Source of the DNA: Escherichia coli
GTDB taxonomy: Bacteria > Pseudomonadota > Gammaproteobacteria > Enterobacterales > Enterobacteriaceae
Assembly (NCBI RefSeq): GCF_030384885.1
Contig: NZ_CP128613.1
Direction: 5' to 3' (one strand)
DNA length: 64,000 bases
Position numbers and translations under genes: made by a program. The notes beneath the pieces were generated by a model. That model worked only from the letters and a program-made list of their open reading frames with translations. It ran no database searches and was not told the DNA's origin. Below are positions 59,493 through 64,000 of the stretch, piece after piece; the stretch's first letter is position 1; every line of letters starts with the position of its first letter.

Positions 59493-60484
59493 TGCCATTA
59501 CTCGATATTCGTAACCTGACCATTGAATTTAAAACCGGTGATGAGTGGGTTAAAGCCGTCGACCGCGTAAGTATGACCTTAACCGAAGGTGAAATCCGCG
59601 GTCTTGTTGGCGAATCCGGTTCCGGCAAAAGTTTGATTGCAAAAGCAATTTGTGGGGTGAATAAAGATAACTGGCGTGTTACTGCTGACCGTATGCGTTT
59701 TGATGATATCGATTTGCTGCGTCTCTCCGCACGCGAACGGCGCAAGCTGGTTGGTCACAACGTGTCGATGATTTTCCAAGAACCGCAGTCTTGTCTTGAC
59801 CCTTCAGAACGTGTGGGTCGCCAGTTGATGCAAAACATCCCAGCCTGGACCTATAAAGGCCGTTGGTGGCAGCGTTTTGGCTGGCGCAAACGCCGTGCCA
59901 TTGAACTTCTGCACCGTGTGGGGATTAAAGATCACAAAGATGCAATGCGCAGTTTTCCCTATGAGTTGACCGAAGGTGAATGTCAGAAAGTGATGATAGC
60001 CATTGCACTGGCGAATCAACCGCGTCTGCTGATTGCTGACGAACCGACAAACTCAATGGAGCCAACAACCCAGGCGCAAATCTTTCGCCTGCTGACGCGT
60101 CTCAACCAAAACAGCAATACCACTATTTTGCTTATCAGCCATGACTTACAAATGCTTAGCCAATGGGCGGATAAAATTAACGTGCTTTACTGCGGTCAAA
60201 CGGTGGAAACCGCGCCGAGTAAGGAGTTGGTGACAATGCCACATCATCCCTATACCCAGGCGCTGATCCGCGCGATACCAGACTTCGGCAGCGCGATGCC
60301 GCATAAAAGTCGCCTCAATACGCTGCCCGGCGCTATCCCACTGCTGGAACAGTTACCGATTGGGTGTCGTCTGGGGCCGCGTTGCCCGTATGCACAACGA
60401 GAATGCATTGTGACGCCACGTTTGACGGGGGCGAAAAATCATCTCTATGCCTGTCATTTCCCGCTGAACATGGAGAAAGAGTGA
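59492..60484 (+). CDS. sapD: ABC ATP-binding protein SapD
   Basis: 330 aa; Walker A GESGSGKS. Confidence 0.92.
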
Positions 60485-60485
60485 G

Positions 60486-61292
60486 ATGATCGAAACGCTG
60501 CTTGAAGTGCGTAATTTAAGTAAAACGTTCCGCTACCGGACCGGCTGGTTTCGTCGTCAGACCGTAGAAGCGGTAAAACCCTTGAGCTTTACGCTACGTG
60601 AAGGCCAGACACTGGCGATCATTGGCGAGAATGGTTCTGGTAAATCCACGCTGGCGAAAATGCTGGCGGGAATGATAGAACCGACCAGCGGCGAGTTATT
60701 GATTGACGATCATCCGCTGCATTTTGGCGATTATTCCTTCCGTAGTCAGCGTATTCGCATGATTTTTCAGGATCCTTCGACCTCGTTGAATCCCCGTCAA
60801 CGTATCTCGCAGATTCTTGATTTTCCACTGCGCTTGAACACCGATCTGGAACCTGAACAGCGTCGGAAACAGATTATTGAAACAATGCGGATGGTTGGGC
60901 TGCTACCGGATCACGTCAGTTACTATCCGCATATGTTGGCACCCGGGCAAAAACAGCGTCTGGGGCTGGCGCGCGCGCTGATATTGCGTCCAAAAGTGAT
61001 TATTGCCGATGAAGCCCTCGCCTCACTGGATATGTCGATGCGTTCGCAGTTGATTAATCTGATGCTGGAGTTACAGGAAAAACAGGGCATTTCGTATATT
61101 TATGTCACCCAGCATATTGGGATGATGAAGCACATTAGCGACCAGGTACTGGTGATGCATCAGGGCGAGGTTGTCGAGCGAGGTAGTACTGCGGATGTGC
61201 TCGCCTCTCCGCTGCACGACCTCACTAAACGACTGATTGCCGGTCATTTTGGCGAGGCATTGACGGCGGATGCGTGGCGTAAGGACCGTTAA
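60486..61292 (+). CDS. sapF: ABC ATP-binding protein SapF
   Basis: 268 aa; Walker A GENGSGKST. Confidence 0.92.
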   Translation: MIETLLEVRNLSKTFRYRTGWFRRQTVEAVKPLSFTLREGQTLAIIGENGSGKSTLAKMLAGMIEPTSGELLIDDHPLHFGDYSFRSQRIRMIFQDPSTSLNPRQRISQILDFPLRLNTDLEPEQRRKQIIETMRMVGLLPDHVSYYPHMLAPGQKQRLGLARALILRPKVIIADEALASLDMSMRSQLINLMLELQEKQGISYIYVTQHIGMMKHISDQVLVMHQGEVVERGSTADVLASPLHDLTKRLIAGHFGEALTADAWRKDR

Positions 61293-61362
61293 TTTTCTGA
61301 ATCAAGCTTGCAGAATATTCACCTCATTCTGACAGGGAAATTCATCCTGTCAGAATGAAGGG

Positions 61363-61809
61363 ATGGATAAAATAAAAGCAAATGCCCGCGATTTAAGACG
61401 CAACCTCACCCCGCAGGAGCGAAAGTTCTGGCGATATCTTCGCAGCCGACGTTTTGCTGATTTCAAATTTCGCCGTCAACATCCGGTGGGGAATTACATT
61501 CTCGATTTTGCCTGTTGCTCTGCACGTTTAGCGGTAGAGCTTGATGGTGGGCAACATGATTCAGCTATCGCGTATGATACCAGGCGCACGCGCTGGCTTG
61601 AGTCCCAGGGCTGGACCGTGCTGCGTTTCTGGAATAACGAGATCGATCATAATGAAGAGGCGGTTCTGGGGGAGATTCTGCAGGAACTGAACCGCCGGTC
61701 ACCCTCACCCCAACCCTCTCCCCAGAGGGGCGAGGGGGCTGTATGTGCCTGTTTGTTGCTGCGCAGGCAAATGAACAAGCGGTGCCGGGGATCATTCTGC
61801 AGGAACTGA
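61363..61809 (+). CDS. ycjD: DUF559 (endonuclease-like) protein YcjD; C-terminal end uncertain because the ORF runs into a repeat
   Basis: N-terminal ~110 aa read as the conserved protein; the last ~35 codons (PSPQPSPQRGEGAVCAC...) are encoded by the repeat at 61671..61930. Confidence 0.7.
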   Translation: MDKIKANARDLRRNLTPQERKFWRYLRSRRFADFKFRRQHPVGNYILDFACCSARLAVELDGGQHDSAIAYDTRRTRWLESQGWTVLRFWNNEIDHNEEAVLGEILQELNRRSPSPQPSPQRGEGAVCACLLLRRQMNKRCRGSFCRN

Positions 61810-61930
61810 GCCGCCTGTTACCCTCTCCCTGAAAGGGCATGGGGGCTGTATGTGCCTGTTTGTTGCTGGGGTGACAACGCGCACAATCGGTCCCCTCGCC
61901 CCTCTGGGGAGAGGGTTAGGGTGAGGGGAA
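61671..61930. repeat. composite repeat: ~37-bp inverted repeats flanking a tandem direct duplication (MITE-like)
   Basis: ccctcaccccaaccctctccccagaggggcgaggggg (61701..61737) pairs with its near-perfect reverse complement cccctcgcccctctggggagagggttagggtgagggg (61892..61928); between them attctgcaggaactga(a/g)ccgcc and gggggctgtatgtgcctgtttgttgctg each occur twice. Confidence 0.7.
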
Positions 61931-62080
61931 AAGCGCACACCCGTGCCCACATTCCTGCCAACTATAGCCACCCACAGCCAGGTTGATTATAATAACCGTT
62001 TATCTGTTCGTACTGTTTACTAAAACGACGAATCGCCTGATTTTCAGGCACAACAAGCATCAACAATAAGGATTAAAGCT

Positions 62081-62869
62081 ATGGGTTTTCTTTCCGGTAA
62101 GCGCATTCTGGTAACCGGTGTTGCCAGCAAACTGTCCATCGCCTACGGTATCGCTCAGGCGATGCACCGCGAAGGAGCTGAACTGGCATTCACCTACCAG
62201 AACGACAAACTGAAAGGCCGCGTAGAAGAATTTGCCGCTCAATTGGGTTCTGACATCGTTCTGCAGTGCGATGTTGCCGAAGATGCCAGCATCGACACCA
62301 TGTTCGCTGAACTGGGGAAAGTTTGGCCGAAATTTGACGGTTTCGTACACTCTATTGGTTTTGCACCTGGCGATCAGCTGGATGGTGACTATGTTAACGC
62401 CGTTACTCGTGAAGGCTTCAAAATTGCCCACGACATCAGCTCCTACAGCTTCGTTGCAATGGCAAAAGCTTGCCGCTCCATGCTGAATCCGGGCTCTGCC
62501 CTGCTGACCCTTTCCTACCTTGGCGCTGAGCGCGCTATCCCGAACTACAACGTTATGGGTCTGGCAAAAGCGTCTCTGGAAGCGAACGTGCGCTATATGG
62601 CGAACGCGATGGGTCCGGAAGGTGTGCGTGTTAACGCCATCTCTGCTGGTCCGATCCGTACTCTGGCGGCTTCCGGTATCAAAGACTTCCGCAAAATGCT
62701 GGCTCATTGCGAAGCCGTTACCCCGATTCGTCGCACCGTTACCATCGAAGACGTCGGTAACTCCGCAGCGTTCCTGTGCTCCGATCTCTCTGCCGGTATC
62801 TCCGGTGAAGTGGTCCACGTTGACGGCGGTTTCAGCATCGCTGCAATGAACGAACTCGAACTGAAATAA
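62081..62869 (+). CDS. fabI: enoyl-[acyl-carrier-protein] reductase (NADH) FabI
   Basis: 262 aa starting [40 protein letters not shown]; SDR fold. Confidence 0.96.
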
Positions 62870-62887
62870 TCGTTCTGTTGGTCAAGA

Positions 62888-62915
62888 TGGGCGGCGTTCT
62901 GCCGCCCGTTATCTC
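62888..62915 (+). terminator. probable terminator downstream of fabI
   Basis: Hairpin gggcggcgttctgccgccc followed by a T-containing tract. Confidence 0.55.
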
Positions 62916-63012
62916 TGTTATACCTTTCTGATATTTGTTATCGCCGATCCGTCTTTCTCCCCTTCCCGCCTTGCGTCAGGATAACGATTTCCTTTACGAC
63001 CAAGGAGCGCCC

Positions 63013-64000
63013 ATGGAACAACGCCACATCACCGGCAAAAGCCACTGGTATCATGAAACGCAATCCAGTACTGCGGAGAATGACGTTCTGCCTCTGGTCC
63101 CGGAAGCCGCAAAGGTTCGCGATCCCTTTCTGCTCGACGTGATCCTTGATGAAGAAACGCTGGCCCCCTTCCTTTCATGGATGGTCCCGGCGCGCATTCT
63201 TGCAGCGGAGTTGTTCCCTGACCAGCTTACTGTGACCCGTTCACAGACCTTCACCGCTTATGAACGTTTGTCGACGGCCCTGACGGTTGCTCAGGTTTGC
63301 GGCGTCCAGCGGTTGTGCAACTACTATTCGGCGCGACTTACACCGCTCCCCGGACCTGATTCCTCCAGGGAAAGCAATCATCGACTGGCACAAATCACGC
63401 AATATGCCCGTCAACTGGCCAGCTCGCCTTCAATAATCGACAACCGATCGCGCCAGCATCTGAATGACGTCGGTCTTACTGCCTGGGACTGTGTGATTAT
63501 CAACCAAATCGTTGGTTTTATTGGCTTTCAGGCGCGGGCAATGGCGACATTTCAGGCTTATCTCGGGCATCCGGTACGCTGGTTACCCGGTCTGGAGATA
63601 CAAAAGTACGCCGACACGTCACTGTTTACGGTTGAATCAATACGCTGGCGAAGCTGCTATGAGGTGGAAAAACTCCCTGAAGAACAGACAAAAAGTTCAA
63701 CTGCAGAACTGTGCCAACTGGCTGAAACGCTCTCTCTCCACCCTAATTCACTTTCCCTTCTCGAAAAGTTGTTAAACAGCACACGGGTCAATACACAGCC
63801 GGATAATAAGCTTGCGGCGTTGTTATGCGCGCGTATTAATGGCAGTCCTGCTTGTTTTGCCGCCTGTATAAATTCATCAAATGAATATAAAAAAATCAGC
63901 CCCCTTCTCCGTAAGGGCGAAAATGAAATTAACCAATGGGCTGACCGTGATTCTGTTGAGCGCGCTACCGTTCAGGCGATACAATGGCTGACCCGAGCAC
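63013..64000 (+). CDS. yciW: CMD-family (carboxymuconolactone decarboxylase-like) protein YciW, 5' portion; 3' end outside the window
   Basis: Open frame from the ATG at 63013 ([17 protein letters not shown]...) to the window edge with no stop; absent from the ORF table only because no stop codon falls inside the window. Confidence 0.8.

What the first reader, a model, noticed from the sequence alone, without database searches (positions are those of the whole stretch)
61671..61930. MITE-like composite repeat fused to the 3' end of ycjD
Between ycjD and fabI, a ~37-bp G/C-rich sequence occurs twice in inverted orientation about 155 bp apart. The intervening DNA holds two tandem direct repeats (a ~22-bp unit and a ~28-bp unit, each present twice). 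The ycjD reading frame runs straight into this structure, giving a low-complexity tail (SPSPQPSPQRGEGA...) and an ORF about 30 codons longer than the ~117 aa I recall for K-12 YcjD. The architecture resembles a miniature inverted-repeat element or a duplicated intergenic repeat, and could form a large stem-loop in the transcript upstream of fabI.
Basis: seen in the sequence. Interest (0 to 1): 0.5.

Follow-up and report, generated by a model that had tools for sequence, protein, structure and literature searches.

The report
BoxC repeats capping the ycjD nuclease gene
The two inverted G/C-rich arms are copies of BoxC, a long-known but unexplained E. coli repeat, and the fusion to ycjD is the local case of a pattern seen across many bacterial phyla and apparently not yet reported, in which this small nuclease gene is bracketed by such repeats.

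Summary
Two 36-nt arms (61702-61737 and 61892-61927, 1 mismatch, 154 nt apart) match the published BoxC/PIT/TMECO triplex-motif pattern exactly. The fabI-proximal arm is identical to copy #9 of the K-12 catalogue.

The '22-bp' and '28-bp' repeats are the best-kept cores of a single decayed 119/107-nt tandem duplication. Each unit is the last ~50 nt of ycjD plus a BoxC plus ~30 nt. Some strains carry only one unit.

The 148-aa ORF arises because this BoxC copy has no stop codon in its hairpin loop. The DUF559 nuclease domain (residues 3-110) is intact.

The composite unit is not a MITE. Its spacer is single-locus, it has no target-site duplication, and no transposase is nearby. Only the arms are dispersed (1-27 matching places per E. 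coli genome).

What I could not find in the literature: YcjD-family genes in many phyla end inside a BoxC-like hairpin and are usually flanked by inverted copies of it. That is about a 50-fold local enrichment in 80 loci, and it held in 12 of 12 loci of a tail-unbiased sample.

My reading, with moderate confidence, is that BoxC is the cognate DNA site of this Vsr/homing-endonuclease-like nuclease. The layout resembles the RAYT/REPIN system.

The parts
60486..61292 (+). sapF, the left conserved flank of the polymorphic segment
   Evidence: ORF; annotated as sapF in the identical strain. It differs from the K-12-type gene at 4.7% of nucleotides.
61325..61357 (.). 12-bp perfect palindrome (CATTCTGACAGG-N9-CCTGTCAGAATG) 5 nt upstream of the ycjD ATG. 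Probably a promoter/operator or the left boundary of the enterobacterial cassette.
   Evidence: Read directly. It overlaps promoter-like hexamers on both strands. The K-12 allele keeps the stem through a compensatory change, CAGG/CCTG to CAAG/CTTG. Related palindromes sit just upstream of ycjD homologues in other Enterobacteriaceae, at different genomic positions.
61363..61698 (+). ycjD nuclease domain (codons 1-112): DUF559, a Vsr-like PD-(D/E)XK fold, intact
   Evidence: Pfam PF04480 covers residues 3-110 at full model length, E = 1.3e-46. NCBIfam PRK09767 scores 235 bits against a cut-off of 218. dN/dS is 0.18 against the K-12 allele. D48, E59 and D61 are invariant in 56 diverse homologues. 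The AF2 model has pLDDT 92.7.
61699..61809 (+). Read-through tail of the ORF (codons 113-148). It is the translation of BoxC plus spacer and lies outside any protein domain.
   Evidence: The K-12 allele stops at a TGA in the hairpin loop. In homologues the stop falls in the loop or just after the hairpin.
61651..61769 (+). Tandem unit 1: the last 48 nt of the ycjD domain coding sequence, a complete BoxC(+), and about 30 nt of spacer
   Evidence: D1 and D2.
61702..61737 (+). BoxC/TMECO copy 1. As read on the + strand: C-rich mirror block, then hairpin. It overlaps the ycjD ORF.
   Evidence: Exact match to the published TMECO pattern on the - strand.
61770..61877 (+). Tandem unit 2: a decayed copy of unit 1, with a remnant of the ycjD 3' end and a degenerate BoxC (about 61820-61846) that lacks the 12-nt third block
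   Evidence: The tblastn remnant is at 61770-61814. The degenerate hairpin folds no better than shuffles. The unit is deleted in one-unit variants.
61892..61927 (-). BoxC/TMECO copy 2. As read on the + strand: hairpin, then G-rich mirror block. It is identical to TMECO #9 of MG1655.
   Evidence: Holder et al. Table S8, row 9. Homology with strains that carry eefRABCD resumes about 30 nt downstream, at 61959.
61965..61993 (+). Promoter-like site of fabI (TAGCCA-17-TATAAT), downstream of the repeat structure
   Evidence: The sequence from here on is identical between alleles.
62081..62869 (+). fabI, the right conserved flank

Best explanation
What it is (shown). The region is the 3' end of a small conserved cassette: ycjD, then BoxC(+), then a spacer, then BoxC(-). 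The two arms are BoxC (also called PIT or TMECO) elements. Each is a 36-nt three-block motif made of a C/G hairpin plus a mirror-repeat third block. BoxC is dispersed in E. coli and can form an intrastrand triplex in vitro.

Between the arms, the unit 'ycjD 3' end + BoxC + spacer' was duplicated in tandem and the second copy has decayed. The ORF is 31 codons longer than in K-12 only because this BoxC copy carries CAGA in its loop instead of a TGA-containing loop.

How it works (inferred). BoxC is the cognate DNA site of the YcjD nuclease. YcjD is a Vsr-like / homing-endonuclease-like PD-(D/E)XK enzyme. It would recognise and nick BoxC DNA when the repeat leaves B-form, as a hairpin, cruciform or triplex, during replication or under supercoiling. 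Host repair and recombination at these nicks would then copy, delete, amplify or disperse BoxC units.

The gene stays bracketed by its own sites. In this respect it resembles a RAYT transposase gene, which stays bracketed by REP/REPIN sequences.

How likely. Identity of the arms as BoxC and the duplication model: about 0.95. Non-random family-wide association of the gene with the repeat: about 0.9. A specific enzyme-site relationship: about 0.45-0.5.
For: Identity of the arms:
- Both arms match 5'-CCCTCNCCC-N3-6-GGGNGAGGG-N3-GGGNGAGGG with no mismatch and 0 expected by chance (pattern).
- The fabI-proximal arm equals MG1655 TMECO #9.
- The reference that Holder et al. cite for the first description of BoxC is the envM (= fabI) sequence paper.
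- A query of ycjD plus the first arm (window 61363-61740) hits 1-27 places per E. coli genome, median 14; apart from the ycjD locus itself these are BoxC matches.

Family-wide association:
- Enterobacterial YcjD homologues end ...PSPRPSP(*), or run on as ...PSPWKGEGE.
- Of 109 diverse representatives found with the tail-less 112-aa core, 58 carry a P-x-P...G-E/R-G tail. None of the control segments did.
- In 80 genomic loci from many phyla, 68 have a pyrimidine-arm/purine-arm hairpin within -25 to +80 nt of the domain end, and 56 have one within 160 nt upstream. About 1-2 of each were expected from the background of 0.012 per 100 bp.
- 145 of 227 strict three-block elements lie next to the gene. 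The dominant layout is hairpin-Gblock / gene / Cblock-hairpin.
- Upstream and downstream copies are usually the same variant, often with reverse-complementary loops. Two paralogues 2 kb apart in L034 carry different variants.
- A sample free of tail bias gave 12 of 12 loci with flanking motifs. It included Deinococcus, cyanobacteria, Neisseria and alphaproteobacteria.
- Four of the five K-12 BoxC doublets have this same configuration, with 16-27 nt in place of the gene.

Enterobacterial cassette:
- The layout palindrome + gene + BoxC(+) + spacer + BoxC(-) recurs in different genomic contexts.
- Tandem amplification of the BoxC unit recurs, with 7 x 103 nt in L019.

The enzyme:
- Acidic residues D48, E59 and D61 are invariant across 56 diverse homologues, as expected for catalytic positions of a PD-(D/E)XK nuclease.
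- dN/dS is 0.18.
- The nearest characterised folds are the catalytic domain of homing endonuclease I-Bth0305I (E = 5.5e-5), then Vsr.
- A Caulobacter DUF559 protein causes DNA damage in vivo.

Consistent background:
- BoxC loci are hypervariable between strains.
- BoxC counts are 19-30 in phylogroups A/B1/C, which carry ycjD, and 1-2 in B2, which lacks it.
Against: - There is no biochemical evidence that YcjD binds or cuts BoxC.
- In E. coli and other Enterobacteriaceae there is no BoxC upstream of the gene. The 'left-type' copy lies downstream instead.
- BoxC abundance does not track ycjD within phylogroups D/E/F. Genomes without ycjD hold 6-17 copies, similar to the rare D/E-type genomes with ycjD (10-17). 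The A/B1-versus-B2 contrast may therefore be purely phylogenetic.
- Paralogues within one genome are at most 73% identical in nucleotides, so the gene itself has not moved recently.
- The cassette is rare on plasmids, 41 of 72,556 records.
- Earlier experiments found no promoter, terminator or conjugation effect of PIT elements, and no stable triplex in vivo.
- A PD-(D/E)XK nuclease cannot rejoin DNA, so any dispersal mechanism must rely on host repair functions and remains undefined.
- The 80-locus sample was ranked with a query that included the tail. This inflates the downstream figure, though not the upstream one.
Confidence: 0.5

Rival explanations
1. BoxC elements are passive structured repeats with no dedicated protein. 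They flank YcjD-family genes because the hairpins insulate the gene, for example by blocking read-through into or out of a potentially toxic nuclease gene or by stabilising its mRNA 3' end. Alternatively, the repeats preferentially accumulate in such intergenic niches. The local duplication would come from replication slippage at a structure-forming sequence.
For: - The region can fold into strong hairpins.
- Copy number of the tandem unit varies in a way typical of slippage or unequal crossing-over.
- Triplex and hairpin motifs are associated with instability in their own right.
- The position of the stop codon relative to the hairpin varies, as expected if only the DNA or RNA structure matters.
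Against: - PIT/BoxC elements showed no terminator or promoter activity in earlier tests.
- There is no T-run after the hairpins here.
- A roughly 50-fold enrichment at one particular gene family, in inverted orientation on both sides and across phyla, with paralogue-specific variants, is hard to obtain from generic insulation or passive accumulation.
Confidence: 0.25
2. YcjD is a solitary Vsr-like repair endonuclease acting on T:G mismatches or methylation-linked damage, as proposed for Caulobacter VsrA. Its function has nothing to do with BoxC, and the flanking repeats are an evolutionary by-product.
For: - The fold is related to Vsr.
- Caulobacter VsrA carries a DUF559 domain, is SOS-induced, and causes DNA damage when ScmA methylation is absent.
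Against: - E. coli already has the canonical Dcm-linked Vsr.
- No methyltransferase gene lies next to ycjD.
- This model does not explain why the gene ends inside the repeat and is bracketed by inverted copies in so many phyla.
- The structural match to a homing endonuclease is stronger than the match to Vsr.
Confidence: 0.15
3. The 260-bp composite is a MITE, meaning a non-autonomous transposon with terminal inverted repeats that is mobilised in trans by a transposase.
For: It has 36-nt terminal inverted repeats, a size in the MITE range, and arms that are multicopy in the genome.
Against: - The internal sequence is single-locus in all 5,426 genomes.
- I saw no target-site duplication in the flanks I read by eye.
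- No transposase with matching ends is known.
- Half of the 'element' is the coding 3' end of ycjD and a duplicate of it.
- The arm orientation here (+,-) is the reverse of the common BoxC doublet.
Confidence: 0.03

Closest known systems
BoxC / PIT element / TMECO triplex motif of E. coli (Bergler 1992; Hoyne & Maher 2000, 2002; Holder et al. 2015, PMC4666352)
   Same: - Both arms fit the published 3-block pattern exactly.
- One arm is the catalogued MG1655 copy #9.
- The arms are multicopy in the genome.
- They occur as an inverted pair.
- The locus is hypervariable between strains.
   Different: - Copy 1 lies inside an ORF, whereas TMECO was described as always intergenic.
- The pair is in (+,-) orientation with a 154-nt spacer, rather than the usual (-,+) doublet with 16-27 nt.
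- The published work reported no common function among the flanking genes and no association with mobile elements. The papers I could search do not mention the link to ycjD/DUF559.
REP/REPIN sequences and their RAYT transposases (comparison from my own knowledge of Nunvar 2010, Bertels & Rainey 2011, Ton-Hoang 2012)
   Same: - A low-copy nuclease gene, inherited at a stable position within a genus, is flanked by inverted copies of a short structured repeat.
- The same repeat is dispersed through the genome as singlets and inverted doublets.
- Paralogues carry their own repeat variants.
   Different: - The protein is a Vsr-like PD-(D/E)XK nuclease, not an HUH/Y1 transposase. It therefore has no obvious strand-transfer chemistry.
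- The repeat is a hairpin plus a mirror (triplex-type) block.
- There is no biochemical evidence.
- In enterobacteria the layout is permuted: both repeats lie downstream of the gene.
Homing endonuclease I-Bth0305I (PDB 3R3P) and Vsr (PDB 1VSR, 1CW0)
   Same: The catalytic fold is shared. Foldseek E = 5.5e-5 for I-Bth0305I and 0.02-0.05 for Vsr. D48, E59 and D61 are invariant in the YcjD family alignment.
   Different: - YcjD is a stand-alone domain of about 115 aa with no separate DNA-binding domain.
- It is not inside an intron or intein.
- It is not next to a methyltransferase gene.
- Its target is unknown.
MITEs
   Same: Short length, terminal inverted repeats, and potential to form a hairpin.
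   Different: The composite is single-copy, I saw no target-site duplication, and there is no cognate transposase. Half of the interior derives from ycjD coding sequence.

Membership tests
BoxC / TMECO | Sequence pattern CCCTCNCCC-N3-6-GGGNGAGGG-N3-GGGNGAGGG (Holder et al. 2015) | tested here: met
   Two exact matches, at 61702-61736 (-) and 61893-61927 (+), with 0 expected by chance. The pattern is quoted.
BoxC / TMECO | Dispersed in multiple copies in the same genome | tested here: met
   A query of ycjD plus the first arm hit 10 places in the source-identical strain, 9-26 in the listed ycjD-positive genomes, and 1-27 (median 14) over all genomes. MG1655 has 23 catalogued copies.
BoxC / TMECO | Intergenic location | tested here: not met
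   This holds for copy 2. Copy 1 lies within ORF 61363-61809. In K-12 the ycjD stop codon lies inside the degenerate copy.
BoxC / TMECO | Forms an intrastrand purine-motif triplex | not testable with these tools
   The third block is a mirror of the hairpin arm with a T-for-A substitution. It covaries with the arm across lineages. Triplex formation in vitro was shown by Holder et al. for a near-identical oligonucleotide.
MITE | The whole element (arms plus interior) is present in many copies | tested here: not met
   The spacer 61741-61888 has a median of 1 place per genome, always at the ycjD locus.
MITE | Target-site duplication flanking the terminal inverted repeats | tested here: not met
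   I saw no direct repeats outside the arms here or outside the flanking hairpins in the other loci I read by eye. This was not tested systematically.
RAYT/REPIN-type system | Nuclease gene flanked by inverted copies of the dispersed repeat | tested here: met
   Thirty of 80 loci have the strict (-,+) layout and 45 of 80 have hairpins on both sides. In E. coli itself the layout is permuted, with both copies downstream.
RAYT/REPIN-type system | HUH / Y1 transposase protein | tested here: not met
   The protein is DUF559, a Vsr-like fold. It is therefore an analogue, not a member.
RAYT/REPIN-type system | The repeat population depends on presence of the gene | tested here: inconclusive
   Counts are 19-30 in A/B1/C (with ycjD) against 1-2 in B2 (without). 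However, D/E/F genomes without ycjD hold 6-17. The comparison is confounded by phylogeny.
YcjD family (DUF559, NCBIfam PRK09767) | Full-length domain match above the curated cut-off, with conserved acidic residues | tested here: met
   PF04480 covers residues 3-110, E = 1.3e-46. PRK09767 scores 235 bits against a cut-off of 218. D48, E59 and D61 are invariant.
Intrinsic terminator | G+C-rich hairpin followed by a T-run | tested here: not met
   No terminator-like site on the + strand between ycjD and fabI.

The most novel reading that the evidence does not exclude
YcjD-family DUF559 proteins are the dedicated nucleases of BoxC-type triplex-motif repeats. This would be a second 'nuclease gene plus its own dispersed repeat' system alongside RAYT/REPIN. 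It would be built on a Vsr/homing-endonuclease fold and a hairpin-plus-mirror-block DNA site, and it would be spread across many bacterial phyla. It would explain how BoxC/PIT elements arise and spread, why their loci are unstable, and what a very large domain of unknown function does.
Probability: 0.4. Interest if true: 0.85.

Novelty: new variant of a known kind. Interest (0 to 1): 0.6.

Why it matters
BoxC/PIT/TMECO repeats were first described in 1992. They are present in hundreds of proteobacterial genomes (3,610 copies in 262 genomes surveyed by Holder et al. 2015) and have no known origin, partner or function. DUF559 is a very large family: 26,023 clusters at 50% identity were found here, and no target is known for any of them.

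A conserved physical link between the two turns both open questions into one direct experiment: does YcjD cut BoxC? If it does, that would supply a mechanism for the 'triplex-associated genomic instability' reported in E. coli, and a second example of a domesticated nuclease living with its own repeat population.

For annotation, it shows that P/S/G-rich C-terminal tails and 'pseudogene, missing C-terminus' calls on these genes are artefacts of reading through the repeat. They are not signs of gene decay.

Tried and rejected
- Rfam scan of 60000-64000 at E <= 1: no match.
- PADLOC and PHROGs: only weak matches to nuclease domains of large proteins; no defence-system membership.
- A ycjD remnant in strains carrying eefRABCD: none found. 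Homology resumes only at 61959.
- Recent transposition of the gene: within-genome paralogues share at most 73% nucleotide identity and no extended flanks.
- Plasmid or phage carriage as a route of mobility: rare, and mostly on chromids or mislabelled chromosomes.
- Target-site duplications: none seen in the flanks I read by eye.
- ycjD presence against BoxC count in E. coli: a strong contrast between A/B1 and B2, but none within D/E/F. I therefore treat it as suggestive only.
- Correlation between protein identity and hairpin-arm identity: weak (Spearman 0.14) and based on non-independent pairs.
- Permutation test for covariation of the third block: circular, because the elements were selected on that same criterion. 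I report it only as a descriptive list of covarying variants.
- Literature searches (BoxC, DUF559, ycjD, TMECO, intrastrand triplex + endonuclease, RAYT + BoxC, RAYT + Vsr): no paper links the gene and the repeat. The library lacks most subscription-journal papers, so this absence is not proof.
Full report
**1. Locus and observation**

The window around 61.3-62.9 kb is the E. coli sapF - ycjD - fabI region.

Its reverse complement, with one mismatch, lies at 61892-61927. There is no other copy in the 64 kb, and none was expected by chance.
- The '22-bp' unit is at 61675 and 61794. The '28-bp' unit is at 61734 and 61841. Both are real.
- These units are interleaved, not tandem. They are the best-kept parts of a single imperfect tandem duplication: unit 1 is 61651-61769 and unit 2 is 61770-61877, at 82-83% identity with a 12-nt indel.
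- Unit 1 begins 48 nt inside the ycjD domain coding sequence. Unit 2 still translates to a recognisable remnant of the YcjD C-terminus.
- The ORF is 148 aa. The K-12 type is 117 aa.
- In the sequence-identical strain 2013C-4282, PGAP calls the gene a pseudogene 'missing C-terminus'.

**2. What the arms are**

- Both arms fit, without mismatch, the pattern CCCTCNCCC-N3-6-GGGNGAGGG-N3-GGGNGAGGG. Holder et al. (2015, PMC4666352) use this pattern to define the TMECO triplex motif, previously called BoxC or PIT element.
- The fabI-proximal arm is identical to row 9 of their MG1655 list, at 1351239-1351204.
- The reference they cite for the first description of BoxC is the envM (= fabI) sequence paper of Bergler et al. 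1992. The repeat at this locus has therefore been on record for three decades.
[quoted passage not shown] It reports no promoter or terminator activity, no common function among flanking genes, no association with mobile elements, and hypervariability of BoxC loci between strains.

**3. Why the ORF is longer**

- In K-12 the first BoxC is degenerate. It lacks the 12-nt third block and has a TGA in its loop, which ends YcjD at ...RRSPSP.
- In the window the first BoxC is complete and its loop (CAGA) has no stop. Translation therefore runs on to a TGA in unit 2.
- Pfam DUF559 covers residues 3-110 at full model length, so the tail lies outside the domain.
- dN/dS against the K-12 allele is 0.18, so the nuclease gene is under purifying selection and is not decaying.

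**4. Polymorphism**

- The segment between the sapF stop and about 61959 is a local island of divergence. ycjD has dS = 0.41 against K-12, compared with 4.7% nucleotide difference in sapF and 1.9% in fabI.
- The window allele is found at 99% identity or more in only one of 5,426 complete genomes. The next best match is 88%.
- Strains of phylogroups B2, D, E and F carry the eefRABCD efflux operon in place of ycjD (PMC12817139). No ycjD remnant is left in those strains.
- Some strains have lost exactly one tandem unit by recombination between the two copies of the ycjD 3' end. This gives a 147-aa chimeric ORF that reads through the second BoxC.

**5. The composite is not a MITE**

- The spacer between the arms occurs only at this locus, with a median of one place per genome, and only in the 3,377 genomes that carry ycjD.
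- I saw no target-site duplication in the flanks I read by eye.
- No transposase is nearby.
- Only the arms are dispersed (1-27 matching places per genome).
- The region can fold into a long hairpin on paper (-151.6 kcal/mol, z = -9.5). It lies upstream of the fabI promoter-like site at 61965-61993, and no T-run terminator follows ycjD.

**6. The lead that goes beyond the locus**

- YcjD homologues in other Enterobacteriaceae, at about 60-70% identity, nearly all end ...PSPRPSP*, or run on as ...PSPWKGEGE.
- A search of 1.84 billion representative proteins with the tail-less 112-aa core found 26,023 relatives. Among the best 150, 109 had a locatable domain end and a tail of at least 8 residues. 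Of those, 58 carry a P-x-P...G-E/R-G tail about 20 residues after the RFWNN motif. None of the control segments did.
- These tails are translations of CCCTCTCCC...GGGAGAGGG-type hairpins.

**7. DNA-level test**

I fetched eighty loci from gamma-, beta- and alpha-proteobacteria, cyanobacteria, Chloroflexi, Nitrospirae, Elusimicrobia, Armatimonadetes, candidate phyla and others. I then used a detector for a pyrimidine arm, a loop and a complementary purine arm. In the 64-kb window this detector finds only the two BoxCs.

- 68 of 80 loci have such a hairpin within -25 to +80 nt of the domain end.
- 56 of 80 have one within 160 nt upstream of the gene, and 45 have both.
- The background is 0.012 hairpins per 100 bp, so about one to two loci of each kind were expected.
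- With a strict three-block definition, 145 of 227 elements lie next to the gene, which occupies about 4% of the sequence.
- The dominant layout is [hairpin-Gblock] - gene - [Cblock-hairpin]. These are inverted copies with the third block on the gene side.
- The two flanking copies are usually the same variant, often with reverse-complementary loops. Two paralogues 2 kb apart in one contig carry different variants.
- The third block mirrors the hairpin arm with a T-for-A change, and it changes together with the arm between lineages. Examples are CCTCTCCC/CCCTCACC, CCTCCCCT/TCCCCACC and CTTCCCCC/CCCCCATC.

Caveat: the 80 loci were ranked with a query that included the tail, which favours in-frame downstream motifs. 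An independent sample drawn with the core only from the plasmid collection gave flanking motifs in 12 of 12 loci and on both sides in at least 8. It included Deinococcus, Picosynechococcus, Synechocystis, Pseudanabaena, Neisseria, Sphingomonas, Azospirillum, Sinorhizobium, Shinella and Klebsiella.

**8. The enterobacterial version**

- In E. coli, Enterobacter, Kluyvera, Phytobacter, Pseudocitrobacter and relatives there is no BoxC upstream of the gene.
- The cassette there is: a small T-run hairpin, a palindrome just before the ATG, the gene, BoxC(+), a spacer of about 10-155 nt, and BoxC(-).
- It sits in different genomic contexts: sapF/fabI in E. coli, hemW/yggN in Enterobacter, and others.
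- In [Erwinia] mediterraneensis the BoxC(+) unit is amplified to seven 103-nt tandem copies before the final BoxC(-). The two-unit array in the window is a small version of the same thing.
- Four of the five BoxC doublets of K-12 have the (-,+) configuration that brackets the gene elsewhere, with only 16-27 nt between the two copies. They look like gene-less versions of the cassette.

**9. The protein**

- The only solved close relative is an uncharacterised Neisseria protein, 3HRL.
- The AlphaFold model (pLDDT 92.7) is closest to 3HRL. Next come the catalytic domain of homing endonuclease I-Bth0305I (E = 5.5e-5) and then Vsr (E = 0.02-0.05).
- D48, E59 and D61 are invariant in 56 diverse homologues.
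- A Caulobacter DUF559 protein, VsrA, is SOS-induced and causes DNA damage in cells that lack ScmA cytosine methylation. This shows such proteins can be active nucleases in vivo. It also supports the rival view that they are solitary repair enzymes.

**10. Does repeat abundance follow the gene?**

- Holder's tables give 19-30 TMECOs in phylogroup A/B1/C strains, which carry ycjD, and 1-2 in B2 strains, which do not. Phylogroups E, D and F have 10-11, 12-15 and 6-7. Holder et al. found no TMECO in Salmonella.
- My own sample of 60 genomes shows 9-26 places in ycjD-positive genomes and 1-17 in ycjD-negative ones.
- Within phylogroups D/E/F the presence of ycjD makes no visible difference. The contrast may therefore be phylogenetic, and I count it only as compatible with the model.

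**11. Interpretation**

Shown:
- The arms are BoxC.
- The interior is a decayed tandem duplicate of the ycjD 3' end plus BoxC.
- The long ORF is read-through.
- The composite is not a dispersed element.
- YcjD-family genes are non-randomly bracketed by BoxC-type inverted repeats across phyla.

Inferred:
- BoxC is the cognate site of the YcjD nuclease.
- Cleavage at structured BoxC DNA, followed by host repair, drives the copying, loss and amplification of the repeat.

The layout resembles RAYT/REPIN, but the enzyme fold and the repeat structure are different, so this is an analogue and not a member.

Against the inference:
- There is no biochemistry.
- The layout is permuted in enterobacteria.
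- The gene shows no recent mobility.
- It is rare on plasmids.
- PD-(D/E)XK enzymes cannot rejoin DNA.

I found no paper that links DUF559/YcjD with BoxC. The searchable library is incomplete, so this is not proof that the link is unreported.

**12. Verdict**

The flagged feature is real, and its arms are an already known repeat. The MITE reading of the composite fails. The fusion to ycjD, which prompted the flag, is the local example of a conserved gene-repeat cassette that appears to be undescribed. That cassette makes two old unknowns, BoxC and DUF559, testable together.

Noticed in passing
window 61325-61357: A perfect 12-bp palindrome (CATTCTGACAGG-N9-CCTGTCAGAATG) lies 5 nt upstream of the ycjD start. 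The K-12 allele keeps the stem through a compensatory change on both sides. Related palindromes precede ycjD homologues in other Enterobacteriaceae at unrelated loci. It could be an operator/promoter or the left end of the cassette.
   Followed up: partly
window 61304-61959, compared with L002 and L003/L084: The sapF-fabI interval holds either ycjD plus BoxCs (about 0.65 kb) or the eefRABCD efflux operon (about 7.9 kb). The right-hand junction lies about 30 nt beyond BoxC(-). A possible decayed BoxC (CCCCAACCTACCCCTTGCAGGCG) sits in the eefR-fabI spacer of eef strains (L003 2421-2443).
   Followed up: partly
window 61363-61740: This ycjD allele is found at 99% identity or more in only 1 of 5,426 complete E. 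coli genomes, and the next best match is 88%. dS is 0.41 against K-12, although the flanking genes differ by only 2-5%. This is a sharp island of divergence, suggesting import of the whole cassette or an old balanced polymorphism.
   Followed up: partly
L088 940-1315: In one-unit variants of the locus, one 119-nt unit has been deleted precisely between the two copies of the ycjD 3' end. This gives a 147-aa chimeric YcjD that reads through the second BoxC.
   Followed up: yes
L019 5329-6131: Seven tandem 103-nt units, each with a BoxC(+), follow the DUF559 gene of [Erwinia] mediterraneensis and end in one BoxC(-).
   Followed up: partly
L060, L037, L025, L057 (ORFs downstream of the DUF559 gene): In several loci the DUF559 ORF reads straight into a large downstream gene. 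Those large proteins themselves contain in-frame insertions of the repeat, for example five tandem LPSPFGRGAGGEASS units in L060. The repeats therefore also invade coding sequence in frame.
   Followed up: no
L034 1116-1525 and 3053-3491: Two DUF559 paralogues lie 2 kb apart in a Chloroflexi contig. Each is bracketed by its own hairpin variant: CTTCCCCC/CCTCCCCC for one and CCCCCTTT for the other.
   Followed up: partly
fold search of the YcjD model: Several mitoribosomal proteins of Toxoplasma and Tetrahymena match the DUF559 fold (E = 0.006-0.02, TM up to 0.71). This suggests the nuclease fold has been recruited into organellar ribosomes.
   Followed up: no
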